Shown in pieces: positions 17,436 through 30,072 of a stretch of DNA of 64,000 bases. The notes below the pieces were generated by a model that did not search any database, was not told the origin of the DNA, and saw only the letters and a list, made by a program, of their open reading frames with translations. Numbering within the stretch: the stretch's first letter is position 1; every line of letters starts with the position of its first letter. This DNA is from an uncultured Anaerolineae bacterium (GTDB lineage: Bacteria > Chloroflexota > Anaerolineae > Aggregatilineales > J027), in the NCBI GenBank assembly GCA_964639245.1, contig CAZXCU010000021.1:9269-73268 (forward strand). Reading direction: 5' to 3'. The translations under genes and the position numbers were made by a program.

Positions 17436-19395
17436 ACTGCACCTCATGTTCCAGTGATTCTGACAGCAAATCCGTAATCTTGATCCGAATTGTGCCAGCA
17501 TCTTCTGGGATAAGATAACGTCCTTCGACTAGATCGTTGTTGTCAGGAATATCAACTAGAGCAGGTTGCAAGACTGCGCCATCATAGTTCCAGTCAATCA
17601 TCACTGACTCGACTAACTCGCGCCAATCTTCTACATTTTCCTGTTGCAGACTGAGCTTTGAGAGCAAATTCATGGGATAGAACTGCTCAATTACCAAATA
17701 GTTGTCCTGGATGACGATTCTTGCTTCTGAGTCACGCTTGAACTGGAGTTCTTGCTTATCACGCAGAATGTCCACCACTTCCACATCCAACACATAAGGG
17801 CTGACTTCTTGTTGAAGGTAGGCAGCTAGCCCCGGCTCATGCCCCATACAAACCAGCGTTATTCTCTCAACCGGGCGAGTGGGATGTTCAGCATGGCGAC
17901 GTTCAAAGGCTTTATAGTCGAAGTTGTTGATAAGTTCATTCAAGTCCTGACGGGTCGCTATGCGATTGACGGGCAGCACTTTAATCATGCGCCCATCTTT
18001 TTCGCCATCGAAGAGATGCCCTGCTTGTAGACGATTAATTTCAAGGGCTTGCAGCAGAATCTCTTTGGCTTCCACTGGGTTGCGAAAAATATCATAATGA
18101 TTGACATTATAAACTTCAAAGCCTGTATAAAAGGACACGATGGGTTCTTCGCCATCCAGCTTCATAAGTTTTTGTTGCTTATTCTGCAATTCGATTTCAA
18201 CAGAGATAAGACGTTTTGTAGTAATTTGAACAGCTCCCAGGTTTATATCTGCGCCAATAAACCGTCGCCCCAATTTCATTGCAACCGATTGAGTTGTGCC
18301 ACTCCCCATAAAGCAATCAAAAACGATGTCTCCCAGATTAGAAGATGCTTTTATAATTCGTTCAAGGAGAATTTCAGGTTTCTGGGTTGGATAACCTTCC
18401 CGCTCACTTGCTTGGGAACTCAGTGCTGATATATCGTCCCATAATGACTGAACTGGAACTCCCATCCCTTCGTCCAAATAGAGTTTTCGGCGCGGCACAT
18501 TATTAGGTGATGTCTGTACCACCAAACCGTTTTCAATAAGCTCTTGCATTTTTTCTTGAGAATATCTCCAATAACGAGTAATTCCCATGACCTCGTATTT
18601 AGGATTACCTTTATCATCACCACCTGGTGCTGTCATACTAATTAACTGATATTTTCTTCCTGTATCTGCTTCAACATACTTATAGAACTGTTCTATGTAT
18701 TCATCCGAATACTCTGTGAACTCTGGATTGAAAGCATAATCTCCCCCTTTTCTGTAGAAGAATAGCGTATCCGTGTTTGCGCCCCAGAACCTGCTACCTT
18801 GTCCAACATTTCCTTTAACCGTGTTAGCTCTTTTCCAAACAATCTCATTAAGAAATTTATCTTTCCCAAATATTTCATCTAATATGCATCTCAAATAATG
18901 GCTTTGATGCCAATCACAATGAAGGTAAAGCGACCCTGAATCAGAAAGCAATTCTCTAATCAAGATTAGTCGTTCATACATAAATTGAAGATATGCATCG
19001 TTCGTCCAAATATCAGAATATTGCTTTTCCTCAAAAACATTATGGTCATTAGAGGCTGTATTTCCTCGTAGTGCTATTGATTTCTTGTAAGCCGCCTTTG
19101 AATCGAATGGAGGGTCAATATAAACAAGTTGTATTTTTTCTCTATATTCCTTTAATAAATGGCTCATCACCTGAAGGTTGTCCCCCCAGTAAATTTTGTT
19201 ACGCCAGCCATTTATGGCTTCACCATAAGTTTCCTTATGCTGGGCAGGGTAATATTGGGTTGATATGAAAGGGCGTTTGCCATGCCAATTCAGCATTGGG
19301 TAGCCTTTAATCGGTTCAAACCGATATTCCTCTACATTATCAAGCTGCCCTGTATTTTTCAGCCCAAGTTCTTGCTGGCGTGCGTCGTTGCTCAT
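17428..19395 (-). CDS. mod: Type III R-M Mod subunit (beta-class N6-adenine/N4-cytosine DNA methyltransferase)
   Basis: Motif IV VYIDPPFDS lies upstream of SAM motif I FDCFMGSGTT. Start ATG 19395 forms an ATGA overlap with the stop of the upstream helicase gene. Confidence 0.85.
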   Translation of the reverse strand: MSNDARQQELGLKNTGQLDNVEEYRFEPIKGYPMLNWHGKRPFISTQYYPAQHKETYGEAINGWRNKIYWGDNLQVMSHLLKEYREKIQLVYIDPPFDSKAAYKKSIALRGNTASNDHNVFEEKQYSDIWTNDAYLQFMYERLILIRELLSDSGSLYLHCDWHQSHYLRCILDEIFGKDKFLNEIVWKRANTVKGNVGQGSRFWGANTDTLFFYRKGGDYAFNPEFTEYSDEYIEQFYKYVEADTGRKYQLISMTAPGGDDKGNPKYEVMGITRYWRYSQEKMQELIENGLVVQTSPNNVPRRKLYLDEGMGVPVQSLWDDISALSSQASEREGYPTQKPEILLERIIKASSNLGDIVFDCFMGSGTTQSVAMKLGRRFIGADINLGAVQITTKRLISVEIELQNKQQKLMKLDGEEPIVSFYTGFEVYNVNHYDIFRNPVEAKEILLQALEINRLQAGHLFDGEKDGRMIKVLPVNRIATRQDLNELINNFDYKAFERRHAEHPTRPVERITLVCMGHEPGLAAYLQQEVSPYVLDVEVVDILRDKQELQFKRDSEARIVIQDNYLVIEQFYPMNLLSKLSLQQENVEDWRELVESVMIDWNYDGAVLQPALVDIPDNNDLVEGRYLIPEDAGTIRIKITDLLSESLEHEVQYG

Positions 19396-22307
19396 GGCTT
19401 GCTCCTGAATTTCCAATTCTTTGCATCACAGTAGTGGCGGATGTCACATGCTTCACAGAGTTTATGAGGGCGTTCCGGGATGGCAAAGTCTTTTGCCTCA
19501 ATCCGTTGAACTACTGCATCAAATGTTGCGATAGTTCTTTCTATCGAACGATTATCTTTGTCGAAAGTGATATAGGGATTGCCAGATTCCTCACCAGTAT
19601 AATACAGATGTGTCTGGCTGACGGTAAGCCCAGTTCGCTGTTCAACAATATGAGCATACACTTCAAGCTGGCGACGGTATTGATCTAATTTCTCCCGATC
19701 TTTCGGGTCGTTGACATCGAGCTTGCGCTCGGATTTGAAGTCTACCAATTCGACGGTATCCCCCTCACCTGCGATCAAGTCTACCTTGCCACTGAGGATA
19801 TAATCATCCTTCACCAGCGAAACATCCACCTCAGCTTCACGAATATATGACCAGTCCTTCTTGTTTGTCCAGTAGTAACGAATCACATGACTGAGCGCAA
19901 TATCTTTCACATTAGGAGCAAGGTAAACCTTCTCCTTTTTAGTGAGATAGGTATAGTTGGTGTCAAACCAGCTAGCCACCTGATCTTCTGTTATCTTATG
20001 CTGTTCTCCCCGCAGCACTGCCTTATGAATGTCCTCTATCGTCTGGTGGACTAATGTACCGAACAAAATAGGGTTCTTTCGGACAGCAGCAAATTCCAAT
20101 TCTCTAAAGAAACGGTACTGTTCGGCGCAGTTTTCGTAGACAGTTAAATGACTGGTAAAGGAGTAATCTTTCTTGAGGTTAACCTCTTTCACCAGTTCTA
20201 GTGGAATTGCCGCCAGATTTACTGATGGGTGGCGCCATGATGGGAGATGATTGTAGTAATCTGCAAAATAGGCAGAGGGAGTTCGTCCTCTACCGTCAAT
20301 CTCAAGGGCAGTCAAAACCAGGAGGTTTTGAGCGCGAGAGAATGCTGTATAGTACAGTCGCCGAAAATCATAAAACTTGGTTTGAGACAATGGTTCAAAT
20401 GGTGGGCGGGCGAGATAACCATTTTCCAGTTTTTCATCTAGGTCAGAATACTGCTTGCGCGGTACAGCCTTCAACGACCCGACAATTACTACTGGAAATT
20501 CTAATCCCTTCGATTGATGGATAGTCAGGAAGGAAACATGCCCGCTTGGTGCATATTCAGTTTCATCCTCGTATTCATTGATTCCCCCATCTTTCAAAAA
20601 GCGGAAAAATTGGTTAAATAAATCACGGATGTTTTTGTCTAAATAGTCAGGTGTGAATACACTCAGGTGATGCAGATACTCATATTTGTTAAGCATCTGC
20701 GAAAACAATCCTAGATTCCGCATAGGCCGGCTGTCGAGCAACCGACTCTGCAATAAATGCTCATCCAAGTAGCGACTAAACAAGGGAAAACGTAGTAGTT
20801 CATAGAACAATCCCGAAAATCCATAATCGGCATTGCGTGTTAAGGCTTTGTGTTGAAGGGCTTTTTGCCGCGCCCATTTGAGTAAATCTGCGTTCTCAGA
20901 TTTTCGTAGTTCATCCGCAAAGGCTTTGAAACAGTCATTATCGTAGTAGTCCCATATATCAAGATGGGCATCGGATTTCCATTTTCTCACAGTGGGGAAC
21001 TGGGGAAATAGAAAGATCAAAGCCCCAATCATCAAGCGTACTTCTTCACGGTCAAAGAATTGATTTGCGCGTGGTGAATAAACCGGGATACCATTCCCCT
21101 CTAAGTATTCTGCAAGACGGCGAACCTCTTCACTTTTTACAGATCGGAATAAAAAAGCGATTTGGTTCCAGTCAGTTAGATGACCAGCATCGCGTAAAGC
21201 ATGGAGAAATGCAAGAATTTCTTCATGCCAAGCTGCTTCTGTTTTGCCAGCCACTTTCATGACTGCTGGGGTATCAGGGAATACTGTTTGACGCGGAATA
21301 ATCCTTTTGTTGTAGCGAAATACCTGCCCTTGATGTTGCCAGTCTTGCCCAGCAATCCAATGATTATAGAAATCAATAATATCTTTATGAGAACGATAGT
21401 TGGTTTCGAGAGCAACCTGTTTGCACTGCCCATCAGGGTATTTGTCTTTGAACTGTAGAATATTCCGAATGGTCGCTCCGCGAAAACGATAAAGCCCTTG
21501 GTCGTCGTCACCCACCACGCAGATATTTGGATAGTCTTCTTTAGTCAGTTCAAGTAAGATAAGTTCTTGAATAGTATTGGTATCTTGATATTCATCTACC
21601 ATCAGGTACGCAATTTTTGAGCGCACCTCATCCCGAATTTTAGGATGATCTTTTAGTAGTCGTAGGGCTTCAAACTGTATAGTTGAGAAATCAAGTGCGT
21701 TTGCCTCTTCAAGCTGCTCACGATAAAGAATCGCACAATGACCTAATGCTTGTATTTCTTCATCAGGTGAGGTAGTCAGGTTATGCGGCTCTAACGCTTC
21801 TTCACTGACAACATTTATCCATTTCAAGAGATTCTCTGTTCTCTGCCATGAGTTTGTGTTTTCACGATTCCCCGTAATATGTTCAACGCCTTCAATACCA
21901 TCATACATATTTAGTCGCTGATAGAGAAAATACTGCTGGTCAAACTGATCCATCATCATAAAATTACGTTTCAGCCGGGTGAATTCACGATGTTCTTGCA
22001 ACCACCGCAGGCAGATTGAATGAAATGTCCCAAGATACATTTCGTTTAGATTAAAACGCACGCCAATTTCGTTGAGCCGGTTGGAAATGCGGGTTGTCAG
22101 TTCTTGAGCTGCCTTATCAGTAAAAGTTACAACCATTAGCTGCTCAGGGGTCACATTGGTCTGCGTAATCAAATAAACAATGCGCTCCACCAGAGTGAAA
22201 GTCTTTCCTGATCCAGGGCCAGCAATAATTAGCAAAGGTCCCTCTGTAGTTGTGATAGCTTCACGTTGTTGCGGATTGGCTCCAGGAGCTATGGGGGCAT
22301 TGGTCAT
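19392..22307 (-). CDS. UvrD/PcrA-like SF1 helicase fused to a Cas4/AddB-like PD-(D/E)xK Fe-S nuclease
   Basis: N-terminal QREAI...IIAGPGSGKTFTL. C-terminal NCAEQY, VELVDFKSERK (DxK) and LCEACDIRHYC, which together form a C...CxxCxxxxxC cluster. Confidence 0.8.
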   Translation of the reverse strand: MTNAPIAPGANPQQREAITTTEGPLLIIAGPGSGKTFTLVERIVYLITQTNVTPEQLMVVTFTDKAAQELTTRISNRLNEIGVRFNLNEMYLGTFHSICLRWLQEHREFTRLKRNFMMMDQFDQQYFLYQRLNMYDGIEGVEHITGNRENTNSWQRTENLLKWINVVSEEALEPHNLTTSPDEEIQALGHCAILYREQLEEANALDFSTIQFEALRLLKDHPKIRDEVRSKIAYLMVDEYQDTNTIQELILLELTKEDYPNICVVGDDDQGLYRFRGATIRNILQFKDKYPDGQCKQVALETNYRSHKDIIDFYNHWIAGQDWQHQGQVFRYNKRIIPRQTVFPDTPAVMKVAGKTEAAWHEEILAFLHALRDAGHLTDWNQIAFLFRSVKSEEVRRLAEYLEGNGIPVYSPRANQFFDREEVRLMIGALIFLFPQFPTVRKWKSDAHLDIWDYYDNDCFKAFADELRKSENADLLKWARQKALQHKALTRNADYGFSGLFYELLRFPLFSRYLDEHLLQSRLLDSRPMRNLGLFSQMLNKYEYLHHLSVFTPDYLDKNIRDLFNQFFRFLKDGGINEYEDETEYAPSGHVSFLTIHQSKGLEFPVVIVGSLKAVPRKQYSDLDEKLENGYLARPPFEPLSQTKFYDFRRLYYTAFSRAQNLLVLTALEIDGRGRTPSAYFADYYNHLPSWRHPSVNLAAIPLELVKEVNLKKDYSFTSHLTVYENCAEQYRFFRELEFAAVRKNPILFGTLVHQTIEDIHKAVLRGEQHKITEDQVASWFDTNYTYLTKKEKVYLAPNVKDIALSHVIRYYWTNKKDWSYIREAEVDVSLVKDDYILSGKVDLIAGEGDTVELVDFKSERKLDVNDPKDREKLDQYRRQLEVYAHIVEQRTGLTVSQTHLYYTGEESGNPYITFDKDNRSIERTIATFDAVVQRIEAKDFAIPERPHKLCEACDIRHYCDAKNWKFRSKP

Positions 22308-22492
22308 GATTCAAATTCCCTGATTTTATGCTCTTTAATTTTACTAAATTCACCAGCAGACAGAGACACAGGATTTCGCTGATGACATAAAATTATCTTA
22401 GGGTAAAAATATACTACATATATTACTACTTTACACACTGCTCAGGTAGAATAAATTGATAGATGACTAGACAACTATACTAGGAACTATCA
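22308..22492. promoter_or_regulatory. AT-rich divergent intergenic region (probable promoters for the helicase-mod-res operon and the four-gene cassette)
   Basis: Assigned on position only. A TAGAAT -10-like hexamer lies at 22447-22452. Direct repeats ATATACTAC / ATATATTACTAC lie at 22409-22429. No convincing -35 element. Confidence 0.4.
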
Positions 22493-23377
22493 ATGGCTTT
22501 CCAGTTTAAGTTTGAATCCCTCTCTGGCTTTCAGGATATAGAGAATTTCTATCAAGAATTTGCATATCAACTGCTAAAGGAATATCCCCATGAAGCAGAA
22601 TTTGATCTAGAAATTATTGAATTTATTACCCCTGAAGCCCTTTTGTCACTATTATGTGCTAGTCAGTATTGGAAGATAAAAAAAGGCTTTCCTGTGAAAT
22701 GGATTGTGAATGAGCGGGTATTAGCTTATTTGGAACGTGTTGATGTCATGCGTGTGTTTGCTGATGCAATTGTCTTTGACAAGTTGCCTAATGAAAAATG
22801 GACACGTAGCTCAAGTTTGTCAGTAATGGAGATCCGTGAAATTAGTCATGAGCCTGAACAAAATAGCTATGATGTTTCAGCCACTATTACAGCCGCAAAC
22901 CACTTCCTTTTGGGGCGGGTAACTACAAAGCAGTTGGGAAGCGCAAGCACTTTACTCAGTGAAATCACACAAAATGTCATTCATAGCAGAAGCATAGGTT
23001 ATGCATTTGCTCAGGCGTATCATGCCAATCAAGGAAGTCGGGTTCATCTAGGCGTGATTGATATTGGTGTAGGGATTGCTACGTCCCTTTCATCCAAATA
23101 TCCTGATGTTGCGAAGCCTTCGGACTACTTACGCCTATCATTGGAGTCAGGCATCACTTCAAGTTCTTCAAGCAATGGGTTAGGTTTATTTCATGTGCGG
23201 AATATTGTTCAACAAGGAAAGGGGATTCTAGTTATTCGCTCTGGAACAGCTTTGCTCCAAATACATGATGAGCGTTTCAATCAATGGGATAATCTTGCAG
23301 AAATCCCTGGAACTCAAGTCTATATAGCCATGTGGGGTAGCCATGAAAAAGGAAAATGGGAATACCCCTTGTCTTGA
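22493..23377 (+). CDS. STAS-like N-terminal domain + minimal GHKL ATPase (RsbW/SpoIIAB-type kinase-like) protein
   Basis: N-box SEITQNVIHS, G1 VIDIGVGI and G2 SNGLGLFHV. No DHp/H-box is present. The N-terminal ~100 aa (FDLEIIEFITPEALLSLLCAS...VLAYLERVDVMRVF) resemble a STAS antagonist fold. Confidence 0.65.
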   Translation: MAFQFKFESLSGFQDIENFYQEFAYQLLKEYPHEAEFDLEIIEFITPEALLSLLCASQYWKIKKGFPVKWIVNERVLAYLERVDVMRVFADAIVFDKLPNEKWTRSSSLSVMEIREISHEPEQNSYDVSATITAANHFLLGRVTTKQLGSASTLLSEITQNVIHSRSIGYAFAQAYHANQGSRVHLGVIDIGVGIATSLSSKYPDVAKPSDYLRLSLESGITSSSSSNGLGLFHVRNIVQQGKGILVIRSGTALLQIHDERFNQWDNLAEIPGTQVYIAMWGSHEKGKWEYPLS

Positions 23378-23398
23378 GTATAGAATGAGTATATACTA

Positions 23399-23430
23399 CC
23401 CTTAAGCAAAAGATGCTTAAGGGTTATTTT
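23399..23430 (+). promoter_or_regulatory. Perfect 9-bp stem-loop with T-rich tail, covering the SD of and abutting the TTG start of the next gene
   Basis: Stem cccttaagc (23399-23407), loop aaaagat, stem gcttaaggg (23415-23423), then ttatttt. AAGGG lies within the 3' stem and the TTG start is at 23429. Confidence 0.6.
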
Positions 23431-24022
23431 GGAAATTCTACGAATTACCAACTTGGTGCAATCCATTACTAGAGAGCCCTCAGTACTAGCAACTCGCTTT
23501 ACTGGGAAGCGTTTTTGGGATGAATTTCAGAAACAACTCTCCCTTTACGACAGGGGAGATGTTGTACTACTTTCATTTGATAACATATTGGTAATGGATG
23601 CATCATTTGCGGATGAGGTATTTGGGCAGATAGCTGTAATGCGAGCTAGGAAGGAATACGAATACCCCTACTTGATCTTGGCAGACCTAAATGAAACTTG
23701 TGAAGAGAACCTGCAAATGGCACTCGTTACTCGAATCGAGCGTGAGCCAAATGATAAGCCACATATACGAAATTGTGTTCTGGTAATAAAAAAAGGTGAA
23801 AGACTTGAATTGGCAGGAAAATATGAAAGTCATGTTCAAGAAACCTTCTCAGTACTTGCAAGTCGCAAAGAACTATCTGCACGCGAATTGGCTGACACAT
23901 TAAAGATCAGCTTAAATGCTGCAAGCACAAGATTAAAAACAATTGCAGATCTGGGGTTAGCAAAACGAGTTGATCTTCGAGATGCACAAGGAAAGCAATA
24001 CATTTACCATCCATTAGTCTAA
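23429..24022 (+). CDS. STAS-like (DUF4325-type) domain + C-terminal winged-HTH protein
   Basis: TTG start taken from the track. VLLSFDNILVMDASFADEVFGQI matches the DUF4325/STAS pattern as I recall it. C-terminal wHTH: LSARELADTLKISLNAASTRLKTIADLGLAKRV. Confidence 0.6.
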   Translation: MEILRITNLVQSITREPSVLATRFTGKRFWDEFQKQLSLYDRGDVVLLSFDNILVMDASFADEVFGQIAVMRARKEYEYPYLILADLNETCEENLQMALVTRIEREPNDKPHIRNCVLVIKKGERLELAGKYESHVQETFSVLASRKELSARELADTLKISLNAASTRLKTIADLGLAKRVDLRDAQGKQYIYHPLV

Positions 24023-24061
24023 ATTTTGTCAATGAGTTAAGCAGAATTTGCTGAGGTGATA

Positions 24062-27000
24062 ATGAGCAACAACTACTTTGAATACTACCGACGTACAATT
24101 GAATCACATCAAACAGGCTTGAAACTGGTTGGCGGCGGAACGGGTTTAGGCAAAACCAGTAGTATTCCAAATGCAGTGATGAAAGCGATCCCTGCCAATC
24201 GCAAAGGAATATATGTAGCGAACCGTACCCAATTGCTTCATGAAATGGCTGATACTACTGATCCAAATTTTGCCATTATTTTGCCTCGTGATTTGGATGT
24301 AGTACGGACTGTGATCAGTAGTAACCATCGTTCAGCTTTTGACGAGTTGCTACGCAATTCTATATTTCAGGCATACACTGATAAGCTTGATCTCAACAAA
24401 GTATATCGTGCCATCAAAACTCTCGATGAAATTTTTGGACCGACCGATTCAAGTATGCTACCGAGTTGGCAAGAGCAAGTAGCAGAAGAGTATTCAAGGC
24501 AGATTCTTAAAGCCTTTCGGACTGTAATTCTTACAGCCAAAAATCGGTCTAAGTCGGACTATAACAAGCTATTAGATCATGATATTGTCCATAAATTGTT
24601 TCCGTTCATTGCATTCAAACGGAAAATGACTGTGAGGTTACTGCTGGTCACGCTGCATAAGCTATTTTATGGCTTCTTCGATGGTGAAAAAACCATCACT
24701 GCCAATCATCTTAAAGGCTATGTAATCTTTGCAGACGAATTTGATTTTCTAGAGAATGATCTTATCCAATTGATTGCTCAGTCACGACAAATCGAGGATG
24801 TATTTCGATTTGTAGAGTATTTTTATCGTGAAATGCAGCGCCACAAAATGAGGTTGGAGAACTACCCTGTATCAGGTTCGCCTGACATTACACGGCGTAT
24901 CAGAAAGATCATGAATGAAATTGATCTGCTTCACGCTGAAAATATCAACTATCCCGATATTAATCAATTCATCAGTACAGAAGCACCAAATGATATAGCG
25001 ATCTTCCGAACAAGCCACACAGTAAGCTCCTCACCAGTTTACTTATGTCAGACAGAGCGAGCCTTCAACATCGTCAGTGATCCAACAATCTGTTCAGATA
25101 AAGTGTTTAGCGCGAGACGGTTGTTTACAGCAGTATCAGCCATCAGTGAACAGATTCTAACTCTGCTAAAGGAAATTGAGGTAGAAGACCCCGCAACACA
25201 TCAGGGAATCATTAATGATGCTTATAGAAACACTGTCTTCCCATCTCAAATTCAACAAGTATCACAATTCCCCCGCCGTCGTCCACCACAATCAACACGA
25301 CTAGGGGCACTCTTAGATGCTGGCTACAGCATGTATGATATTCACTATATTGCAAAAGCAACTGACCCTGAAGAAGTGGAGCTTCGGAATTATGCGATAT
25401 ATACTACCCCTGAGAAATTTATAAGCACATTAGCCGAGAAGAACCTTGTCTTTGCCCTATCCGCCACAGCAGACATCCACCGCTGTGTCAACAACTTTAA
25501 TCTGCATTGGTTGGGCGCAAAAGATGGTATTAACCTTCTGCTGCCAGATGAACGGGATGCACAAGATGTTAGTGCTTTAAATAATGAGAAGGCAGCTATT
25601 CGCGGGAATCAGCTTGAGGTAATCCGGCTTAAAGAATTGGATAATCGTCAATCCCTAGACAAGCAAATACGCCGCTTTATTGCAACAGCTTTCCAAACAG
25701 AACAATTTACAAATGATACAAAAGGCGGACACCTTAAGCGTCGTGTAGAACGATTCTTTAGTAGCCTGCTTATTGCCTGTGAAAGAAGCATTTTAAGCGA
25801 GGAAATTCAATCTCATCTGTTCTTTCTCAATACATATCGTGACATAGAACAGCTATTTAAGAATGAAATGCTGCATATAGCTCCGTTTTATAAAATTCGT
25901 CCTTTATTGGAGCGCAAGTTATTTACTGCCTATGAACTTGACATCAACAATCAGACGTTTGTAGTCGTTTTCTACAATGCAGAACAAGCCAAGCGCATTC
26001 GGCAAACGGCAGGTGCCAAGAATGAATTTAACCAGCTCTTTCATACAGAGTTGCCTGTGGTAGTGGTAACACAATACCTAACCGCAGGTAATGGCGTTAA
26101 CATTCAGTATGAACTTCAAGACGGAACTGAGCGTGATTTCCTAAATCTATATCTCTTAGAAGTTCCATATTTCTACTTCAGCAATGGTTCCGAAGATGAT
26201 ACAGATGAAGAGCGAATAGCAAAGTTGAAAGAAAACCTATGGTATCTTGCAAAGCTCCATTCAGAAAAATATCTGAGTGAGCAGGAGTTTCGCGCTAAAC
26301 TCAGCACGCTGCATAAGCCAAATGATTGGAACAATACATACCAGCATCATCCACGCATGTCGCATGATTATCTACTCAATACAATCGCTTCATTAATTCA
26401 AGCAATGGGGCGAATTGAACGTGTCTGGAAACCAATTCCAGATCAATCAGTTGTGTTATGTCGTGAAGCGTACCACGCTTTTCAGCAGTTTCTTGGTCCC
26501 GAATTTGATGATCTGCGTTACATACGTGAACCAATGATTTCTCATAATCTACAAACCCTGCTGGCAAAGATAGAGGAACAAATTCCGCAACAAGAACGTA
26601 TGGCTCGGCGAAAACAAGATGCCCGACTTGCAGAGCTTAATGAAGTATGCAAACGAAATATTACTCAGTTTATCGAACGCTTTGATACGATACGTAGTCA
26701 AGCGGATAAAGGAAAATTGCGCCAGATATGGCGTAGACTACGCATTGCGGCACTCCGCCACGATTTCGCGGATAATACTCTTCAAGAGTGGTCGGCTGTA
26801 TATAACTCGCCTAATGTTCACAACGGCGAAGTTTATCTGAGTCCCGATTATGAGTCGTTACCTATCAACCACGACCAGCCAGATTCTAGAGCTTGGCGGC
26901 TAAATGCTGTTTATGATGTTGTTAGCGACAACCATACTATTCGTGAATACTTTGCAAAACATGGATATGAATTTGACTTCGATATGGACGGGCAAAATTG

Positions 27001-27508
27001 TTTTGTGCCTTATTTTCACCAAGCAATCTTGTCGGGTGCTATAGGCGAAGAAGCAATTACAGCACTTCTAAATGCAAAAGGTATTCCTATTGAGGATTTA
27101 TCAGATGAGCTATTTGAAATTGCTGACATCAAAGTTGTAAACAAGCCATGGTACATTGACTGCAAAAATTATTCCGACTCAACAATGGAACGATTTTTGT
27201 TAGGACCTGATGATGCTGGTTTCTACCATAAATTCACAGGACACTACTTTACAAAGAGAGCCATTGAGAAATGGAGACTAATTGTAGAGTATGAAAACCA
27301 ACCCAGTCGTCTGCTATTTATCAACACGGCAACGCTCCAAGAGCGCCCATTACAGTATTATCGTTGCACTACATCTGAGTTAGTACCTGTTACCCATTAT
27401 AGGGATGCAGATATTGTTATCCTCCAGGGGGCACTCGTGTCCGACCACGCGAATCAATATCATCCATCTTTTGATCGCCTATTAAACGATATGGAGAATG
27501 AGTTATGA
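24062..27508 (+). CDS. DinG/XPD-like SF2 helicase fused to a C-terminal PD-(D/E)xK nuclease domain
   Basis: The GAGG SD favours ATG 24062 over GTG 24056. Motif I GGGTGLGKTS, II IFADEFDF, III LSATAD, V-like TAGNGVNI and VI QAMGRIERV. C-terminal GEEAI...FEIADIKV...WYIDCKNY. Confidence 0.7.
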   Translation: MSNNYFEYYRRTIESHQTGLKLVGGGTGLGKTSSIPNAVMKAIPANRKGIYVANRTQLLHEMADTTDPNFAIILPRDLDVVRTVISSNHRSAFDELLRNSIFQAYTDKLDLNKVYRAIKTLDEIFGPTDSSMLPSWQEQVAEEYSRQILKAFRTVILTAKNRSKSDYNKLLDHDIVHKLFPFIAFKRKMTVRLLLVTLHKLFYGFFDGEKTITANHLKGYVIFADEFDFLENDLIQLIAQSRQIEDVFRFVEYFYREMQRHKMRLENYPVSGSPDITRRIRKIMNEIDLLHAENINYPDINQFISTEAPNDIAIFRTSHTVSSSPVYLCQTERAFNIVSDPTICSDKVFSARRLFTAVSAISEQILTLLKEIEVEDPATHQGIINDAYRNTVFPSQIQQVSQFPRRRPPQSTRLGALLDAGYSMYDIHYIAKATDPEEVELRNYAIYTTPEKFISTLAEKNLVFALSATADIHRCVNNFNLHWLGAKDGINLLLPDERDAQDVSALNNEKAAIRGNQLEVIRLKELDNRQSLDKQIRRFIATAFQTEQFTNDTKGGHLKRRVERFFSSLLIACERSILSEEIQSHLFFLNTYRDIEQLFKNEMLHIAPFYKIRPLLERKLFTAYELDINNQTFVVVFYNAEQAKRIRQTAGAKNEFNQLFHTELPVVVVTQYLTAGNGVNIQYELQDGTERDFLNLYLLEVPYFYFSNGSEDDTDEERIAKLKENLWYLAKLHSEKYLSEQEFRAKLSTLHKPNDWNNTYQHHPRMSHDYLLNTIASLIQAMGRIERVWKPIPDQSVVLCREAYHAFQQFLGPEFDDLRYIREPMISHNLQTLLAKIEEQIPQQERMARRKQDARLAELNEVCKRNITQFIERFDTIRSQADKGKLRQIWRRLRIAALRHDFADNTLQEWSAVYNSPNVHNGEVYLSPDYESLPINHDQPDSRAWRLNAVYDVVSDNHTIREYFAKHGYEFDFDMDGQNCFVPYFHQAILSGAIGEEAITALLNAKGIPIEDLSDELFEIADIKVVNKPWYIDCKNYSDSTMERFLLGPDDAGFYHKFTGHYFTKRAIEKWRLIVEYENQPSRLLFINTATLQERPLQYYRCTTSELVPVTHYRDADIVILQGALVSDHANQYHPSFDRLLNDMENEL

Positions 27509-30039
27509 ACCGCAAAGCTAAAACCACTGCTATCGAAATCACACCGCCAATAACCTTCACTCAGTTAGATCAACAGTATCGTCTTGTAAAATATCTGTTG
27601 CCTCGAATGCTTGTGCTTTACAAAGACGAACACAAATATGCCAAGATGCACAATGAAATCAAGGAAATCCTTAATGTACCATACCGAGTTTTCACTAAGG
27701 ATTATATTAATGGTTACAAGCGTTGGTCATTGTACGCCCTATTTCCTCCAAAATCTGATGCTGATGGTACAAATGGTGGTTCGGAGGCATTAGGTGAAAA
27801 AACAAGCGATTTACCAGTTCTAAATTATGATGGAGAGGCACTCTCTCCTTATCCTGTACCATTTAGCGAACCAAAGTTGCATGTACTTATAAAATTACTA
27901 CAAGTTGCTTATACCCATCACCATGAGGTGGGACAAACCACAAATCGGTTTGTTGGACGACATGAGTGCTATATATATGCAACTCGCAGTGGAGATTCCG
28001 GTGAGTATCATAAATGCTTGGAAATGGAAATCCGAGGCGATATCCAGAATGAAAACATCTTCTATATTGATGGACATTCTCGAACATTTGCCTTAGATAG
28101 TAAGATAAATGCTCAATACATCAACATCAATACATACTTCACTATGATTCCTATCAAGGATGATTTGATTATATTTAATCAGATTAAGCGAAGTGCTGTC
28201 CGAGATGCTATTAAGGATAATAAGGCTTTGCGACTGTATAAGCAAATTCGGATTCCGGGCAAAAGAACAACTCTTGATTTCCACTCCATTGACTCACAAG
28301 AAGAAACTGAGCAAACACGAGGCTATCTAATTGATACATTCATTAGGGGCTTTTCTGCCTACCTTCAAGGTTTTGGTTTTAAAGTCGAGCATATTTCTCG
28401 TGATTTTCAACGATTTGAAACCACCACCACTTCGGATTTTAAGCTCCCGGTTGCCCAACTTGGTGAGATATTCATCTACGATGTCAGATTCTCAAAATCT
28501 ATTTCGCTCCAGAAGTACCTTCAAGCATTGGTTTCTCTATATCCTAGCAATACGTTCAAAGTAACTCATTCATTGGATGAAATTGGAACTAAACCGGTGA
28601 TTATCATTCAGGATTGCGAGGCAAAAGCCTTTAAGGAGGGTATGCCGCTTTTTGGAGAGATCGATCCTCATGAAGTGATATATCAAACGTACCCCTTGAT
28701 TCCCAAGCAGTTTCTGAATGTCAACTCTAACGAGTTACGTGAGAAGAAAAAAGAGGCAGCACAAACATCTGAGGAAGAAACAGTAGCCTCAGTAGAATCT
28801 ATTGATGGTGACTTATCGCTTAACATGCCTCATTTCGATAGTGCGGATGATGAGGAAGAAGACGAGACCGTGAATCCACGAGAACGATACTTGTCCTACG
28901 ACCTCAAAAAGATTGGAGACTCACAAGCAATAATGCTAATGAATCAGCTTTTCTTGAAAGATTTGATTCTTAATCAACGAAAAGTACCAGGTCGGCTCCC
29001 CACCCTATCCACGCTTATGTATGTACATCGAGAACACCAAATTATCAAAGGTATCAGATGCAAATTTGAGGTTGCCTTGTATGTTGAGAACCATAAGACT
29101 ATTTTTCTCGATCTCGTGAATAGCGAGGAAGACAAAGAGACTTTCTATAAGCGCATTGATGCTTGGGAAGTTGATTGGGAAGGTTGCTCAACTCAGATGC
29201 GTGAACGCCGTCTTGGTGATGAAGATGGCAAGGATTTACCTGACTTTGATGTAATTGTAGGTCCCAAGCTATTTGTGGAAATTTCTAGTGGAAATGAAGC
29301 AATTCTCTATCCTTATGATGAAATTATCCGTCGTCATGAGGAACAAACTCAGACATTTGAGCTGGATGAGCTCAAACTAGCCGCAAGATATGACGAGATT
29401 ATTGATGACTCTAATCTGACAGAAGAAATGTTACAACTCTGGGGGTATCTGAAACAGCAAAGCCGAGGAGGAGTTAGGCTCAAAAAGCCAAAGAATGCAG
29501 AACATCGTGCAGCGATACAGCTTTATGAGGCGCTACATGAATATGATAATCTCCTCGAAAAATTGAAGGAGCGTTACCCAGCAATTTCATTTTATGAACT
29601 GACAACAGACGAGAATATTGTTCCACACATTGTAAAATTGTTTGGGAGTCCACAAAAACTTCAAAATACTTACAAGAAGATAAAGATGTTCCGTGGATTA
29701 CGCGAGGCTGATATGGTTTCAGTCTACACAGGGATTTGGCATACAAATGACTTAAGGTATGTTGTTGGTGATCCAAATCCTATGAATAGTAGCCAAGCAA
29801 AGGCACATCGTGTACGTCAATTCCATATCTATCAAGGTAGCGAGAATCTTGATATTACTCCATTTCTAGAAGAAATGAGCGTAACTTTCGTTCGTCTTAA
29901 CCAATATACGGTTTATCCTTATCATTTCAACCTCATTGATATATACATAGACAGTATTTTGGAACACCAATACAAACTGATAGAGGTGCTTAATTTGAAT
30001 CCAGATGATGGAATGGAGACCGATGAAGATATCCAGTAG
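27505..30039 (+). CDS. Large uncharacterised protein (844 aa), translationally coupled to the helicase-nuclease
   Basis: ATGA start/stop overlap at 27505-27508. Acidic linker SADDEEEDE. No catalytic motif recognised by eye. Confidence 0.7.
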   Translation: MNRKAKTTAIEITPPITFTQLDQQYRLVKYLLPRMLVLYKDEHKYAKMHNEIKEILNVPYRVFTKDYINGYKRWSLYALFPPKSDADGTNGGSEALGEKTSDLPVLNYDGEALSPYPVPFSEPKLHVLIKLLQVAYTHHHEVGQTTNRFVGRHECYIYATRSGDSGEYHKCLEMEIRGDIQNENIFYIDGHSRTFALDSKINAQYININTYFTMIPIKDDLIIFNQIKRSAVRDAIKDNKALRLYKQIRIPGKRTTLDFHSIDSQEETEQTRGYLIDTFIRGFSAYLQGFGFKVEHISRDFQRFETTTTSDFKLPVAQLGEIFIYDVRFSKSISLQKYLQALVSLYPSNTFKVTHSLDEIGTKPVIIIQDCEAKAFKEGMPLFGEIDPHEVIYQTYPLIPKQFLNVNSNELREKKKEAAQTSEEETVASVESIDGDLSLNMPHFDSADDEEEDETVNPRERYLSYDLKKIGDSQAIMLMNQLFLKDLILNQRKVPGRLPTLSTLMYVHREHQIIKGIRCKFEVALYVENHKTIFLDLVNSEEDKETFYKRIDAWEVDWEGCSTQMRERRLGDEDGKDLPDFDVIVGPKLFVEISSGNEAILYPYDEIIRRHEEQTQTFELDELKLAARYDEIIDDSNLTEEMLQLWGYLKQQSRGGVRLKKPKNAEHRAAIQLYEALHEYDNLLEKLKERYPAISFYELTTDENIVPHIVKLFGSPQKLQNTYKKIKMFRGLREADMVSVYTGIWHTNDLRYVVGDPNPMNSSQAKAHRVRQFHIYQGSENLDITPFLEEMSVTFVRLNQYTVYPYHFNLIDIYIDSILEHQYKLIEVLNLNPDDGMETDEDIQ

Positions 30040-30072
30040 TCACCCTCATGGAGGTCTCCCTATTTTAATTTT
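30015..30072 (+). terminator. Possible terminator of the four-gene cassette
   Basis: ggagacc (30015-30021) and ggtctcc (30052-30058) are inverted, followed by ctattttaatttt. The loop is long (~30 nt), so the call is weak. Confidence 0.3.

What the first reader, a model, noticed from the sequence alone, without database searches (positions are those of the whole stretch)
22308..30072. Four-gene AT-rich cassette: GHKL/STAS partner-switching-like pair + DinG-like helicase-nuclease + 844-aa orphan (top candidate for an undescribed defence system)
Seen in sequence: four co-directional genes, visibly more AT-rich than the backbone, diverge from the Type III R-M operon. Genes 3 and 4 overlap by ATGA. 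Gene 1 combines a STAS-like N-terminus with a minimal GHKL ATPase (N-box SEITQNVIHS, G1 VIDIGVGI, G2 SNGLGLFHV). It has no His-kinase DHp/H-box, so it has RsbW/SpoIIAB-type anti-sigma kinase architecture. Gene 2 is a DUF4325-type STAS domain fused to a wHTH. Gene 3 is an SF2 helicase whose GTGxGKT ... QxxGRxxR pattern looks DinG/XPD-like, with a C-terminal E / D / DxK nuclease (GEEAI, FEIADIKV, WYIDCKNY). Gene 4 (844 aa) has no motif I can place. Established knowledge: GHKL kinase plus STAS antagonist pairs act as partner-switching switches (RsbW/RsbV, SpoIIAB/SpoIIAA). Helicase-nuclease fusions are typical defence effectors, and defence genes cluster in islands. Inference: an ATP/phosphorylation-gated switch, with a DNA-binding STAS-wHTH component, may license a helicase-nuclease, and the orphan protein may act as sensor or second effector. 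More speculatively, a DinG-type helicase plus REase-fold nuclease plus large unknown protein echoes the computationally predicted pPIWI-RE triad (Burroughs, Iyer and Aravind). I could not confirm any RNase H/PIWI motifs in gene 4.
Basis: partly seen in the sequence, partly recalled or inferred. Interest (0 to 1): 0.9.

Follow-up and report, generated by a model that had tools for sequence, protein, structure and literature searches.

The report
Damage-switched Argonaute anti-plasmid cassette
The four genes are real and conserved together, but they are not an undescribed defence system: they are a distant relative of the Argonaute-plus-helicase-nuclease system DdmDE sitting behind a distant relative of the recently described CapK/CapS kinase-repressor switch, a pairing I did not find reported.

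Summary
Four co-directional genes (294, 197, about 1148 and 844 aa) lie in an AT-rich stretch, and genes 3 and 4 overlap by ATGA.

- **Gene 3** is a DdmD-type SF2 helicase fused to a PD-(D/E)xK nuclease (profile vs V. cholerae DdmD, E=5.5e-16). All five nuclease catalytic residues and the helicase motifs are invariant.
- **Gene 4**, the "orphan", is an Argonaute. Its AlphaFold2 model matches solved DdmE structures best (Foldseek E=1e-20 to 1e-18).
- **Genes 1 and 2** are distant homologues of CapK (STAS+GHKL kinase) and CapS (STAS-wHTH repressor), described in EMBO J 2026. In that system ssDNA-activated phosphorylation of a conserved CapS serine de-represses the adjacent immune operon. Gene 2 matches the CapS crystal structures (E=1.5e-7) and keeps the phospho-serine (S59) and the DNA-contact residues.
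- **Operator candidates:** a conserved promoter plus palindrome lies between genes 1 and 2, and a second copy lies before gene 3. The same operator occurs in a locus whose CapKS-like pair precedes an unrelated operon.

The quartet recurs in 11 loci, down to 28% identity for gene 4. The Argonaute pair also occurs without the regulators, and the regulators occur with other systems.

Verdict: a new variant of known kinds, of moderate interest.

The parts
22308..22492 (.). Divergent intergenic region between the UvrD-nuclease/Mod/Res operon and gene 1. It presumably holds the gene 1 promoter.
   Evidence: Sequence read. Only weak sigma-70-like matches were found (TTTACA-16-TAAATT at 22430-22457). 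No copy of the operator occurs here.
22493..23377 (+). Gene 1: CapK-like Ser kinase (N-terminal STAS-like domain plus GHKL kinase domain), lacking the N-terminal HTH of published CapK.
   Evidence: BLASTP against E. roggenkampii CapK (WP_001567866.1) gives E=2e-5 and 26% identity over 231 aa, with N161 aligned to the catalytic N218. Seven of 8 orthologues hit Pfam HATPase_c and 5 of 8 hit HATPase_c_2. The profile matches SpoIIAA over the N-terminal 16-89 at E=0.03. The AF2 model has pLDDT 88, and Foldseek returns GHKL folds.
23369..23397 (+). Sigma-70-type promoter for gene 2, and probably genes 3-4: TTGTCT, 17-bp spacer, TATACT. The -35 element lies inside the end of gene 1.
   Evidence: Found by the scan. 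By eye, a -35 / 17-bp spacer / TATACT-or-TATATT arrangement can be read at the same place in each of the quartet loci whose sequence was printed, and also in L021, L023 and L024.
23398..23424 (.). Operator candidate 1: a perfect 11-bp inverted repeat, ACCCTTAAGCA-N5-TGCTTAAGGGT, immediately after the -10 element. Its right arm covers the gene 2 Shine-Dalgarno sequence.
   Evidence: The half-site is TTAAGC in window/L012 (L001 has ATAAGC on the left arm) and changes to TTCAGC on both arms in L006/9/14/16. The same TTCAGCA-N5-TGCTGAA follows the -10 element in L024, where the downstream operon is unrelated. Published CapS sites are TTAA half-site palindromes (PMC13373217).
23429..24022 (+). Gene 2: CapS-like STAS-wHTH transcriptional repressor, with predicted phospho-acceptor S59 in the invariant motif D57-A-S-F-A-D-E63.
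   Evidence: The profile against PDB gives 9z71_A (E. roggenkampii CapS) at E=1.5e-7 over the full length and 9z72_A (V. cholerae CapS) at 2.2e-7. BLASTP against CapS gives E=2e-8. S59, N163, K170 and G188 are invariant and align with CapS S54, N145, K151 and G169/170. Pfam gives DUF4325 plus MarR_2/HTH_20.
24037..24055 (.). Operator candidate 2: TTAAGCA-N5-TGCTGAG, an imperfect copy of site 1 with the same spacing. It overlaps the gene 3 Shine-Dalgarno sequence (GAGG).
   Evidence: This is the only other match with 2 or fewer mismatches in the 64 kb window. The gene 2-gene 3 spacer has 82% mean column identity across loci whose proteins are 52-74% identical to the window's. The box ATGAGTT[A/C]AGCAG is invariant, and its A/C matches the A/C state of site 1 in each lineage.
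24056..27508 (+). Gene 3: DdmD-like SF2 helicase fused to a C-terminal PD-(D/E)xK nuclease (likely start ATG 24062).
   Evidence: The profile of 10 orthologues against V. cholerae DdmD (8u0u, 9bf1, 9ezx) gives E=5.5e-16. A single-sequence search gives E=1.6e-4, and the PADLOC DdmD model gives 5e-7. Invariant motifs, including E998/E1021/D1024/D1035/K1037, align with DdmD E1059/E1082/D1085/D1100/K1102.
27505..30039 (+). Gene 4: DdmE-like (long-C-type) prokaryotic Argonaute, translationally coupled to gene 3 (ATGA). It carries a lineage-specific acidic insertion at about residues 413-453.
   Evidence: The AF2 model has pLDDT 74.7 and pTM 0.68. The top six Foldseek PDB hits are all DdmE (L. casei 9ixm_B and 9iw3_A at E=2.5e-20 and 1.4e-19; V. 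cholerae 8u3k_E, 9bgk_E and 9ezy_B at E=1e-18 to 1e-17, target TM 0.59-0.68), followed by PiwiA and TtAgo. The profile against the L. casei DdmE sequence gives E=4.8e-5 on the C-terminal FVRxxQYTVxPY motif.
14772..22307 (-). Neighbour, not a core part: the divergent operon UvrD-helicase/PD-(D/E)XK nuclease (19392-22307), Type III-like Mod (17428-19416) and Res-like helicase-endonuclease (14772-17501).
   Evidence: Pfam and PADLOC results are. The operon is conserved next to the quartet only in the two closest relatives, L012 and L001, and is absent upstream in L014. Published capKS pairs lie downstream of an R-M system in 88 of 443 cases.

Best explanation
The cassette is a DdmDE-family, Argonaute-guided helicase-nuclease defence system placed under a CapK/CapS-type damage-responsive transcriptional switch.

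**Resting state (inferred from homology).** Dimers of the STAS-wHTH repressor (gene 2) bind two palindromes. One lies just after the -10 element of the promoter between genes 1 and 2. The other lies in the gene 2-gene 3 spacer. Binding keeps genes 2, 3 and 4 at a low level.

**Induction (inferred).** Single-stranded DNA accumulates, for example from DNA damage, restriction and repair of an invader, or perhaps conjugative entry. The STAS+GHKL kinase (gene 1) then phosphorylates Ser59 of the repressor. The repressor dimer falls apart and leaves the DNA, and the operon is induced.

**Effector step (inferred from solved DdmDE structures and assays).** The Argonaute (gene 4) is loaded with short 5'-phosphorylated DNA guides and binds complementary plasmid or phage DNA. 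It recruits the helicase-nuclease (gene 3). Gene 3 loads on the displaced strand, translocates and degrades the DNA.

**What is shown here.** Homology, domain content and catalytic and contact residues of all four proteins, the conserved promoter and palindromes, and co-inheritance of the four genes. The order of events above is inferred.
For: **Effector pair.**
- Gene 3 is DdmD-like: profile E=5.5e-16 against solved V. cholerae DdmD, with all helicase motifs and all five nuclease catalytic residues invariant.
- Gene 4 is DdmE-like: the top six Foldseek hits are DdmE at E=1e-14 to 1e-20 (five of them at 1e-17 to 1e-20), ahead of Piwi and TtAgo at 1e-9 to 1e-8. There is also a sequence-profile hit to L. 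casei DdmE.
- The gene order is helicase-nuclease then Argonaute, with ATGA coupling.

**Regulator pair.**
- Gene 2 matches both solved CapS proteins over the full length (E about 1e-7).
- It keeps the phospho-serine in an invariant DASFADE motif and the DNA-contact Asn and Lys.
- Gene 1 aligns with CapK from the end of its STAS domain through the whole GHKL domain, with N161 aligned to N218.
- The published mechanism is described in PMC13373217.

**Operators.**
- A promoter followed by a palindrome sits between genes 1 and 2 in every quartet locus.
- The half-site changes on both arms and in the second site together: TTAAGC in one clade and TTCAGC in the other.
- L024 carries the same TTCAGCA-N5-TGCTGAA three times around a CapS-like gene 43% identical to gene 2, yet it is followed by a WYL plus E1/E2/JAB operon. 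This ties the palindrome to the repressor, not to DdmDE or to an RNA terminator.

**Linkage.**
- The quartet is co-linear in window, L012, L001, L006, L009, L014, L016, L029, L034, L017 and L021.
- Across these loci gene 4 identity falls to 28% and gene 1 and 2 identity to 25-27%.
Against: **No experiment.** Nothing here has been tested on this locus.

**Weak homology for the regulators.** Gene 1 is only 26% identical to CapK and gene 2 only 23% identical to CapS.

**Differences in gene 1.**
- It lacks the CapK N-terminal HTH.
- The ssDNA-stacking Trp68 appears to be replaced by Phe13, judged by manual alignment only.

**Promoter uncertainty.** The gene 2-gene 3 spacer is only 33-39 bp and I could not place a convincing second promoter in it. 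Site 2 may therefore act differently from the published promoter-2 operator, for example as a roadblock or through translational occlusion.

**Limited statistics.**
- The operator co-variation rests on essentially one evolutionary split.
- The pattern count in the window is not significant on its own at 3 mismatches.

**Possible alternative role for site 1.** In window and L012 it also looks like an intrinsic terminator.

**Gene 4 details untested.** Whether it lacks a catalytic tetrad, and what guides it uses, was not examined.

**Regulators are not obligatory.** Two lineages of the same Argonaute/helicase pair lack CapKS (L003-type and L018).
Confidence: 0.7

Rival explanations
1. Post-translational (toxin-antitoxin-like) control. 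The gene 2 protein binds and inhibits the helicase-nuclease or the Argonaute directly, as VapS inhibits VapC. Phosphorylation by gene 1 then releases the active effector.
For: - The VapKSC precedent comes from the same protein families (PMC13373217).
- Gene 1 has the HTH-less STAS+GHKL architecture of VapK, and a Phe where VapK has F54.
- The four genes are tightly packed, and DdmD is known to need release from auto-inhibition.
Against: - Gene 2 keeps a full wHTH with the CapS DNA-contact residues invariant. VapS has only a short C-terminal helix instead.
- Conserved palindromes sit at the promoter and before gene 3.
- Close relatives of the same kinase/repressor pair, with the same operator, precede unrelated operons (L024, L023).
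- The Argonaute/helicase pair exists without them (L018, L003).
Confidence: 0.12
2. Two independent neighbours. Genes 1-2 are a self-contained module, for example controlling the divergent R-M/UvrD-nuclease operon or only themselves. They lie next to a DdmDE-like pair merely because defence genes cluster.
For: - CapKS-type pairs are modular and are often found beside R-M systems (88 of 443).
- Here gene 1 shares a 185-bp divergent region with an R-M operon.
- The DdmDE-like pair occurs alone or with other neighbours.
Against: - The order gene 1, 2, 3, 4 with 33-51 bp gaps is kept down to 28% identity of gene 4. The R-M operon is kept only in the two closest relatives.
- Operator copy 2 overlaps the gene 3 ribosome-binding site and is the most conserved non-coding stretch.
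- No operator copy lies in the gene 1/R-M divergent region.
Confidence: 0.08
3. A member of the computationally predicted pPIWI-RE system (PIWI-RE protein plus DinG-type helicase plus REase).
For: The functional triad is the same: helicase, restriction-fold nuclease and PIWI-fold protein. The Argonaute fold of gene 4 is confirmed.
Against: - None of 15 gene 4 family members, and neither gene 3 nor gene 4 of the window, hits any pPIWI-RE Pfam model at E<=1. That such models exist in Pfam is from my own knowledge.
- The best structural and sequence matches are DdmE and DdmD.
- The helicase and nuclease are fused, as in DdmD.
Confidence: 0.04
4. A wholly new four-component defence system in which all four proteins form one machine with no relation to named systems.
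For: Standard libraries give almost nothing. Pfam, NCBIfam and PADLOC have no hit for gene 4 and only weak hits for genes 1 and 3.
Against: Profile, structure and literature comparisons place every gene in a described family.
Confidence: 0.03

Closest known systems
DdmDE plasmid-defence system (Vibrio cholerae VSP-II; Lactobacillus casei homologue). DdmD is a helicase-nuclease and DdmE is a long-C clade pAgo.
   Same: - The two-gene order is the same: a helicase-nuclease of about 1150-1190 aa followed by an Argonaute.
- SF2 motifs and the E/E/D/D/K nuclease site are conserved.
- The gene 4 model is closest to solved DdmE and shares the C-terminal FVRxxQYTVxPY motif with L. casei DdmE.
   Different: - It is very divergent, with 11-12% identity to DdmE in the structural alignments.
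- No PADLOC model matches gene 4, and the PADLOC DdmD model hits only the nuclease region.
- Gene 4 is longer (844 aa against about 690-715) and carries an acidic insertion.
- The pair is preceded by a conserved kinase/repressor pair, which is not mentioned in the DdmDE text I searched.
- Relatives come from Chloroflexota-type MAGs rather than Vibrio or Lactobacillus.
CapK/CapS, "controller of associated pathways" (Chambers et al., EMBO J 2026, PMC13373217)
   Same: - A STAS+GHKL kinase gene is immediately followed by a STAS-wHTH repressor gene, upstream of an immune operon and beside an R-M system.
- The phospho-serine, the DNA-contact residues and the kinase N-box Asn are conserved.
- A promoter plus TTAA-containing palindrome lies between the two genes, and a second site lies after the repressor gene.
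   Different: - The kinase has no N-terminal HTH. The published delta-HTH mutant was functional.
- Phe probably replaces Trp68.
- The operator is TT(A/C)AGCA-N5-TGCT(T/G)AA, so the TTAA cores are 11 bp apart. The published sites are the 1-bp "narrow" and 10-bp "wide" forms.
- The spacer before the downstream operon is only about 35 bp.
- The downstream system is DdmDE-like. That type does not appear in the paper's main text or in its supplementary tables, by text search for Ddm, Argonaute, pAgo and helicase. No Chloroflexota entries appear in its CapKS table.
VapKSC toxin-antitoxin-like system (same paper)
   Same: The kinase architecture is the same: STAS+GHKL without an HTH, and an aromatic Phe at the proposed ssDNA-stacking position.
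   Different: The VapS partner has a STAS domain plus a short inhibitory helix and no wHTH, and the effector is a PIN nuclease. Here the partner is a full STAS-wHTH protein with operator-like palindromes.
ApsAB anti-plasmid system and the wider ApsA/DdmD family (PMC11096173)
   Same: That paper defines a broad family of helicase-nuclease proteins, each paired with an Argonaute-like protein and located in genomic islands. The window's pair fits that description.
   Different: ApsA is about 1500 aa. ApsB is reported to have no sequence similarity to DdmE and a different predicted structure. Gene 3 is DdmD-sized and gene 4 is DdmE-like by fold. ApsB itself was not compared here.
SpoIIAB/SpoIIAA and RsbW/RsbV partner-switching modules
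   Same: A GHKL Ser kinase phosphorylates a conserved Ser on helix 2 of a STAS protein. Gene 2 S59 aligns with SpoIIAA S58.
   Different: The cassette contains no sigma factor and no PP2C phosphatase gene. By homology to CapS, the output is DNA release by a repressor, not sigma-factor exchange.

Membership tests
DdmD (helicase-nuclease of DdmDE) | SF2 helicase core with Walker A, DExx, SAT and QxxGRxxR motifs | tested here: met
   GGGTGLGKT 27-34, DEFD 227-230, SAT 469-471 and QAxGRIER 782-789 are invariant in 10 orthologues.
DdmD (helicase-nuclease of DdmDE) | C-terminal PD-(D/E)xK nuclease with the five residues shown to be essential in V. cholerae (E1059, E1082, D1085, D1100, K1102) | tested here: met
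   E998, E1021, D1024, D1035 and K1037 are invariant and aligned to those positions. The residue list comes from 10.1101/2024.05.10.593530.
DdmD (helicase-nuclease of DdmDE) | Significant sequence homology to solved DdmD | tested here: met
   Profile E=5.5e-16, collinear over helicase and nuclease. PADLOC DdmD model E=5e-7.
DdmD (helicase-nuclease of DdmDE) | Auto-inhibited dimer released by DdmE-target complex | not testable with these tools
   Needs biochemistry or multimer modelling.
DdmE (long-C pAgo) | Argonaute fold closest to DdmE | tested here: met
   The top six Foldseek hits are DdmE chains at E=2.5e-20 to 4e-14, with target TM up to 0.68. Other Argonautes follow at 1e-9 and weaker. 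Model pLDDT 74.7.
DdmE (long-C pAgo) | Sequence-level relationship to DdmE | tested here: inconclusive
   Only the C-terminal 70 residues match L. casei DdmE (E=4.8e-5). There is no PADLOC, Pfam or NCBIfam hit.
DdmE (long-C pAgo) | Encoded immediately downstream of the helicase-nuclease gene | tested here: met
   ATGA overlap. The same order holds in all related loci.
DdmE (long-C pAgo) | No DEDX catalytic tetrad; C-APAZ in place of PAZ; insertion in PIWI | not tested
   No residue-level structural alignment was available. No Pfam PAZ or Piwi hit was found, but that is weak evidence.
DdmE (long-C pAgo) | Uses 12-14 nt 5'-phosphorylated DNA guides | not testable with these tools
   Conserved Y393, K401-Q402 and K485 could form a MID pocket. 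This is inference from the alignment only.
CapK | STAS domain followed by a GHKL kinase domain with the catalytic N-box Asn | tested here: met
   N161 aligns to CapK N218. E157, N161, DxGxG, GxGL and GT are invariant in 42 homologues. A Pfam STAS_2 hit occurs in the L017 orthologue, and there is a SpoIIAA match.
CapK | N-terminal HTH domain | tested here: not met
   Gene 1 is 294 aa against 368 aa, and the alignment starts after the HTH. The paper found the HTH dispensable, and VapK lacks it.
CapK | Gene immediately followed by capS | tested here: met
   The gap is 51 bp. The same arrangement holds in all quartet loci and in L023 and L024.
CapK | Aromatic residue stacking on ssDNA (W68) and activation by ssDNA | tested here: inconclusive
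   F13 lies at the corresponding place by manual alignment (GFQDIENF against AWIDENIF). Activation itself is not testable here.
CapS | N-terminal STAS plus C-terminal wHTH, homologous to solved CapS | tested here: met
   9z71_A E=1.5e-7 over residues 29-195, and 9z72_A 2.2e-7. BLASTP E=2e-8.
CapS | Absolutely conserved phospho-acceptor Ser on STAS helix 2 | tested here: met
   S59 is invariant within DASFADE in the 8 aligned orthologues, and the motif is also present in the L021, L023 and L024 proteins. It aligns with the second Ser of the CapS DSSF motif (S54) and with SpoIIAA S58.
CapS | Conserved DNA-contact residues (N145, K151, GG169-170) | tested here: met
   N163 and K170 are invariant. 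G188 is invariant and the second Gly is replaced by Lys.
CapS | Palindromic operators with TTAA half-sites at the capS promoter and before the downstream operon | tested here: met
   Sites at 23398-23424 and 24037-24055 are conserved and co-vary across loci. Their spacing and extended half-site differ from the published ones. Binding was not tested.
pPIWI-RE system | PIWI-RE-type PIWI domain recognisable by the family's profiles, with separate DinG-type helicase and REase genes | tested here: not met
   No pPIWI-RE Pfam hit at E<=1 for genes 3 and 4 or for 15 family members. The helicase and nuclease are fused. The existence of those Pfam models and the separate-genes description of the triad are from my own knowledge.
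RsbW/RsbV or SpoIIAB/SpoIIAA partner switching | Kinase sequesters a sigma factor; a PP2C phosphatase resets the STAS protein | tested here: not met
   No sigma factor or PP2C domain is found in the cassette or its flanks.

The most novel reading that the evidence does not exclude
The ssDNA-sensing kinase/repressor pair is a long-standing, co-inherited part of this Argonaute clade and makes pAgo immunity inducible. Single-stranded DNA would switch on the Argonaute and helicase-nuclease. That ssDNA could come from an entering conjugative plasmid, or from processing of invader DNA by the neighbouring restriction enzyme and UvrD/AddAB-type helicase-nuclease. The same processing could also supply the short DNA guides. 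This would couple first-line restriction, sensing and guide acquisition in one island.
Probability: 0.2. Interest if true: 0.6.

Novelty: new variant of a known kind. Interest (0 to 1): 0.4.

Why it matters
- **Regulation of DdmDE.** I know of no dedicated regulator described for DdmDE. A conserved clade in which the Argonaute/helicase-nuclease pair sits behind a DNA-damage/ssDNA-responsive kinase-repressor switch would give a direct handle on when such systems are deployed. It would also add an Argonaute system to the list of CapKS-controlled pathways.
- **A gap in annotation.** Current defence-system models miss this clade. PADLOC has no hit for the Argonaute, so DdmDE-like systems may be under-counted outside Proteobacteria and Firmicutes.
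- **Limits of the claim.** This is not a new principle, because both modules and their mechanisms are published.

Tried and rejected
**Searches that gave nothing useful**
- Single-sequence Pfam, NCBIfam, PADLOC and PDB searches gave nothing for gene 4 and nothing usable for gene 1. Only profiles and structure prediction resolved them.
- Megablast of the cassette and of the window flanks found no match against PLSDB plasmids or complete E. coli genomes. No tRNA was found. The host stays unknown.
- A literature search for DUF4325 gave nothing useful.
- A combined CapK/CapS/DdmDE/long-C search was swamped by unrelated word-start matches and showed no paper holding both system names.

**Readings considered and rejected**
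- pPIWI-RE was rejected because there are no profile hits and the helicase-nuclease is fused.
- Site 1 as merely an intrinsic terminator was considered. The hairpin has dG -16.2 kcal/mol and z=-3.4. I rejected it as the main reading because the T-run is absent in the other loci, whereas the palindrome, its position after the -10 element and its sequence in L024 are kept.
- The Type III R-M/UvrD-nuclease operon as part of the unit was rejected, because it is conserved only in the two nearest relatives.

**Less specific than hoped**
- Foldseek of the gene 1 model returned generic GHKL folds (Hsp90, GyrB) rather than anti-sigma kinases. That result supports the fold only.

**Left open**
- I could not place a credible sigma-70 promoter in the 33-39 bp gene 2-gene 3 spacer.

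Full report
**1. The observation**

The four ORFs exist as described: 22493-23377 (294 aa), 23429-24022 (197 aa, TTG start), 24056-27508 (1150 aa) and 27505-30039 (844 aa). All are on the + strand. Genes 3 and 4 overlap by ATGA.

GC is about 0.40 from 15 to 30 kb, against about 0.55 for most of the rest of the window. The low-GC block therefore also covers the divergent operon on the minus strand. That operon encodes three proteins:
- a UvrD-type helicase fused to a PD-(D/E)XK nuclease (971 aa);
- an N6/N4 DNA methyltransferase with Type III/II MTase hits (662 aa);
- a ResIII helicase with a TnsA-like endonuclease domain (909 aa).

The wider window looks like an integrative or conjugative element. 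It carries a type IV coupling protein (31716-33761), topoisomerase III, a DUF6094 methylase-helicase and an IS transposase. It also has several other AT-rich cargo islands. It has no close DNA match in PLSDB plasmids or in complete E. coli genomes.

**2. Genes 3 and 4 are a DdmDE-type pair**

*Gene 3.*
- On its own it hits the PADLOC DdmD model (5e-7) and solved V. cholerae DdmD (E=1.6e-4, collinear).
- A profile of ten orthologues raises this to E=5.5e-16.
- Walker A (GGGTGLGKT), DEFD, SAT and QAxGRIER are invariant.
- E998, E1021, D1024, D1035 and K1037 are also invariant. They align with the five DdmD nuclease residues whose mutation abolishes plasmid elimination.

*Gene 4.*
- It has no hit in Pfam, NCBIfam, PADLOC or PDB by sequence.
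- Fourteen homologue clusters were found by word-seeded search, and 305 representatives at 50% identity by full HMM search.
- An AlphaFold2 model built on the 15-sequence alignment (pLDDT 74.7, pTM 0.68) matches DdmE from L. casei and V. cholerae best. Foldseek gives E=2.5e-20 to about 1e-17 with target TM 0.59-0.68.
- A sponge Piwi and Thermus Argonaute follow at 1e-9 to 1e-8.
- The family profile also hits the L. casei DdmE sequence at E=4.8e-5 on a shared C-terminal FVRxxQYTVxPY motif.

The specific pPIWI-RE label is not supported. No pPIWI-RE Pfam model is hit by any family member, and the helicase and nuclease are fused as in DdmD.

The published mechanism is as follows. DdmE is a catalytically inactive long-C pAgo that uses 12-14 nt 5'-phosphorylated DNA guides. 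It recruits and un-dimerises DdmD, which translocates on the displaced strand and degrades the DNA (10.1101/2024.05.10.593530). A wider family of ApsA/DdmD helicase-nucleases, each with an Argonaute-like partner, has also been described (PMC11096173).

**3. Genes 1 and 2 are a CapK/CapS-type controller**

*Gene 2.*
- It has a DUF4325 STAS-like domain plus a MarR-type wHTH.
- A profile of eight orthologues hits two very recent PDB entries over the full length: 9z71_A (E=1.5e-7) and 9z72_A (2.2e-7).

*The paper behind those entries.* They belong to Chambers et al., EMBO J 2026 (PMC13373217). The main findings of that paper are:
- CapK (HTH-STAS-GHKL kinase) and CapS (STAS-wHTH repressor) lie upstream of diverse immune operons (CBASS, Bub, Bil, Thoeris IV, CarolAnn, YegP). 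They were found in 443 loci, 88 of them just downstream of an R-M system.
- ssDNA activates CapK.
- CapK phosphorylates CapS Ser54, which breaks the CapS dimer and releases it from TTAA-half-site palindromes. One site lies in the capK-capS spacer and one lies before the downstream operon.

*Direct comparison.* I recovered a bona fide capK-capS-Bub locus from an E. roggenkampii plasmid (L020) and compared the proteins directly.
- Gene 2 against CapS gives E=2e-8.
- S59, within an invariant DASFADE motif, aligns with the phospho-serine. N163, K170 and G188 align with the DNA-contact residues N145, K151 and G169/170.
- Gene 1 against CapK gives E=2e-5, 26% identity over 231 residues, from the end of the STAS domain through the whole GHKL domain. 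N161 lies on the catalytic N218.
- E157, N161, DxGxG, GxGL and GT are invariant in 42 homologues.
- Seven of eight orthologues hit Pfam HATPase_c and five hit HATPase_c_2. The most distant orthologue also hits STAS_2 at its N-terminus.
- The gene 1 model is confident (pLDDT 88) and returns GHKL folds.

*Differences from CapK.* Gene 1 lacks the N-terminal HTH, which was dispensable in the published assays and is absent from the related VapK. It probably has Phe13 where CapK has the ssDNA-stacking Trp68; VapK has Phe at that position.

**4. Regulatory DNA**

*Site 1.* Between genes 1 and 2 lies a sigma-70-type promoter (TTGTCT, 17 bp, TATACT; 23369-23397). It is followed at once by a perfect 11-bp inverted repeat, ACCCTTAAGCA-N5-TGCTTAAGGGT (23398-23424). 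The right arm of the repeat covers the gene 2 ribosome-binding site.

*Site 2.* An imperfect second copy with the same spacing, TTAAGCA-N5-TGCTGAG (24037-24055), lies in the 33-bp gene 2-gene 3 spacer and overlaps the gene 3 ribosome-binding site. It is the only other match with 2 or fewer mismatches in the 64 kb window.

*Conservation across loci.*
- The promoter-plus-palindrome arrangement is present in every quartet locus.
- The half-site is TTAAGC in window and L012 (L001 has ATAAGC on its left arm). It is TTCAGC on both arms in L006, L009, L014 and L016.
- The site 2 box ATGAGTT[A/C]AGCAG shows the same A/C split.

*The test that ties the palindrome to the repressor.* In L024 a CapS-like protein 43% identical to gene 2 precedes a WYL plus E1/E2/JAB operon rather than DdmDE. 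TTCAGCA-N5-TGCTGAA follows the -10 element there, and two more copies lie after the repressor gene. The palindrome therefore travels with the repressor, not with the effector genes. It is also not simply a terminator: the T-run seen in the window is missing elsewhere.

*A second subclade.* L017, L021 and L023 use GTTCAC-N9-GTGAAC in the same position.

*What I could not do.* I could not place a second promoter in the short gene 2-gene 3 spacer. Genes 3-4 may be co-transcribed with gene 2, with site 2 acting as an extra block. This step is inferred.

**5. Linkage**

*The quartet recurs.* It is co-linear in window, L012 (gene 4 92% identical), L001 (58%), L006/L009/L014/L016/L029/L034 (42-44%) and L017/L021 (28-30%). 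In these loci gene 1 identity falls to 27% and gene 2 identity to 25-26%. Where named, the source assemblies are Anaerolineae/Chloroflexota MAGs and one MAG labelled Saccharibacteria.

*The effector pair also occurs without the regulators.*
- In L003, L004, L032 and L033 an unknown 433-aa protein and a HerA-type ATPase precede it. L005 carries the same pair, but its contig ends just upstream of gene 3.
- In L018 it sits between housekeeping-type genes.

*The regulator pair also occurs with other systems.* The HTH-less CapK-like family has 72 clusters. It precedes a DUF5691/MoxR/DUF5682/VWA operon in L023 and an E1/E2/JAB operon in L024.

*Two subclades.* Identity matrices show two CapKS subclades, and each contains both DdmDE-linked and non-DdmDE-linked members. 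The regulators are therefore modular controllers, as published, and not DdmDE-specific subunits. Within the window's lineage, however, they have been inherited together with the effector pair for a long time.

*The R-M operon.* The R-M/UvrD-nuclease operon is kept only in L012 and L001. L014 has a group II intron reverse transcriptase upstream instead.

**6. Mechanism and rivals**

*Best explanation (confidence about 0.7).* The cassette is a CapKS-type damage/ssDNA-responsive transcriptional switch that controls a DdmDE-type Argonaute/helicase-nuclease system.
- Shown here: homology, conserved catalytic and contact residues, conserved operators and linkage.
- Inferred: binding, phosphorylation, the inducing signal, guide type and anti-plasmid activity.

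*Rivals.*
- Direct VapS-like inhibition of the effector by gene 2 (about 0.12). It is disfavoured by the intact wHTH, the operators and the modular contexts.
- Independent neighbours (about 0.08). It is disfavoured by deep co-linearity and by site 2 overlapping the gene 3 start.
- pPIWI-RE (about 0.04).
- A wholly new system (about 0.03).

**7. Novelty and score**

Both modules are published: DdmDE with structures from 2024, and CapKS in 2026. The "undescribed system" claim therefore fails.

What appears new:
- The pairing itself. No mention of Ddm, Argonaute, pAgo or helicase occurs in the CapKS paper or its tables, and its CapKS table has no Chloroflexota entries.
- A very divergent DdmDE clade that PADLOC does not recognise.
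- An HTH-less CapK with a different operator geometry.

I rate it a new variant of known kinds, with interest 0.4.

The most novel reading not excluded is this: ssDNA from conjugative entry, or from restriction/UvrD-AddAB processing, both induces the system and feeds guides to the Argonaute. An AddB-like plus UvrD-like pair directly upstream in L021, and the UvrD-nuclease gene next to the window's cassette, hint at it. I give it probability about 0.2 and interest 0.6 if true.

Noticed in passing
window 14772-22307 (- strand); L021 2346-8921: A UvrD-helicase/PD-(D/E)XK gene is fused into one operon with the Type III-like Mod and Res genes, with overlapping ORFs. This operon lies next to the cassette in window, L012 and L001. 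In the distant locus L021 an AddB-like (1062 aa) plus UvrD-like (1127 aa) pair lies directly upstream of CapK-CapS-DdmD-DdmE, co-directionally. There may be a link to ssDNA or guide production.
   Followed up: partly
L003 3150-6421; also L004, L032, L033: In one lineage the same DdmD/DdmE-like pair is preceded by a 433-aa protein with no Pfam hit and a HerA/DUF87-type ATPase (657 aa, overlapping ORFs), instead of the kinase/repressor pair.
   Followed up: partly
window 22493-23377 (gene 1, residue 48): The STAS-like domain inside the kinase has Glu at the position of the SpoIIAA phospho-serine in 7 of 8 orthologues (TPEAL/PPEAL). This looks like a built-in phosphomimetic and may be a pseudo-substrate.
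   Followed up: no
window 28741-28863 (gene 4 residues about 413-453): A 40-residue acidic, low-confidence insertion (pLDDT below 50) is present only in the window and its 92%-identical relative. All other homologues lack it.
   Followed up: no
window 47224-51723: A 1499-aa protein with nSTAND_NTPase5 and TCAD9 domains lies in a separate AT-rich island (GC about 0.375, 47-52 kb). It is likely another conflict or defence gene.
   Followed up: no
window 34235-37764: An AT-rich patch encodes an Mrr_cat restriction-endonuclease-domain protein (394 aa). Next to it is a 773-aa DUF488 protein that hits the PADLOC candidate PDC-M45B.
   Followed up: no
window 4842-8648, 13418-14419, 31716-33761, 42042-44042, 58439-60112: The backbone genes suggest an integrative/conjugative element: a DUF6094 methyltransferase-helicase, a DndC/PAPS-reductase-like protein, a T4SS coupling protein, topoisomerase III and a DDE transposase. 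There is no tRNA in the window and no close match in PLSDB or E. coli genomes.
   Followed up: partly
L023 9001-18080; L024 9001-17425: HTH-less CapK/CapS-like pairs precede two other operons. One is a DUF5691/AAA_5(MoxR)/DUF5682/VWA operon. The other is a WYL + E2-E1-JAB + CoiA_N + PNP_UDP_1 operon. Both are further candidate CapKS-controlled systems in Chloroflexota-type contigs.
   Followed up: partly
L026 9001-11432: One CapK-like protein (287 aa) is followed directly by an FAD-dependent oxidoreductase with no CapS-like gene. This is a context unlike the others.
   Followed up: no
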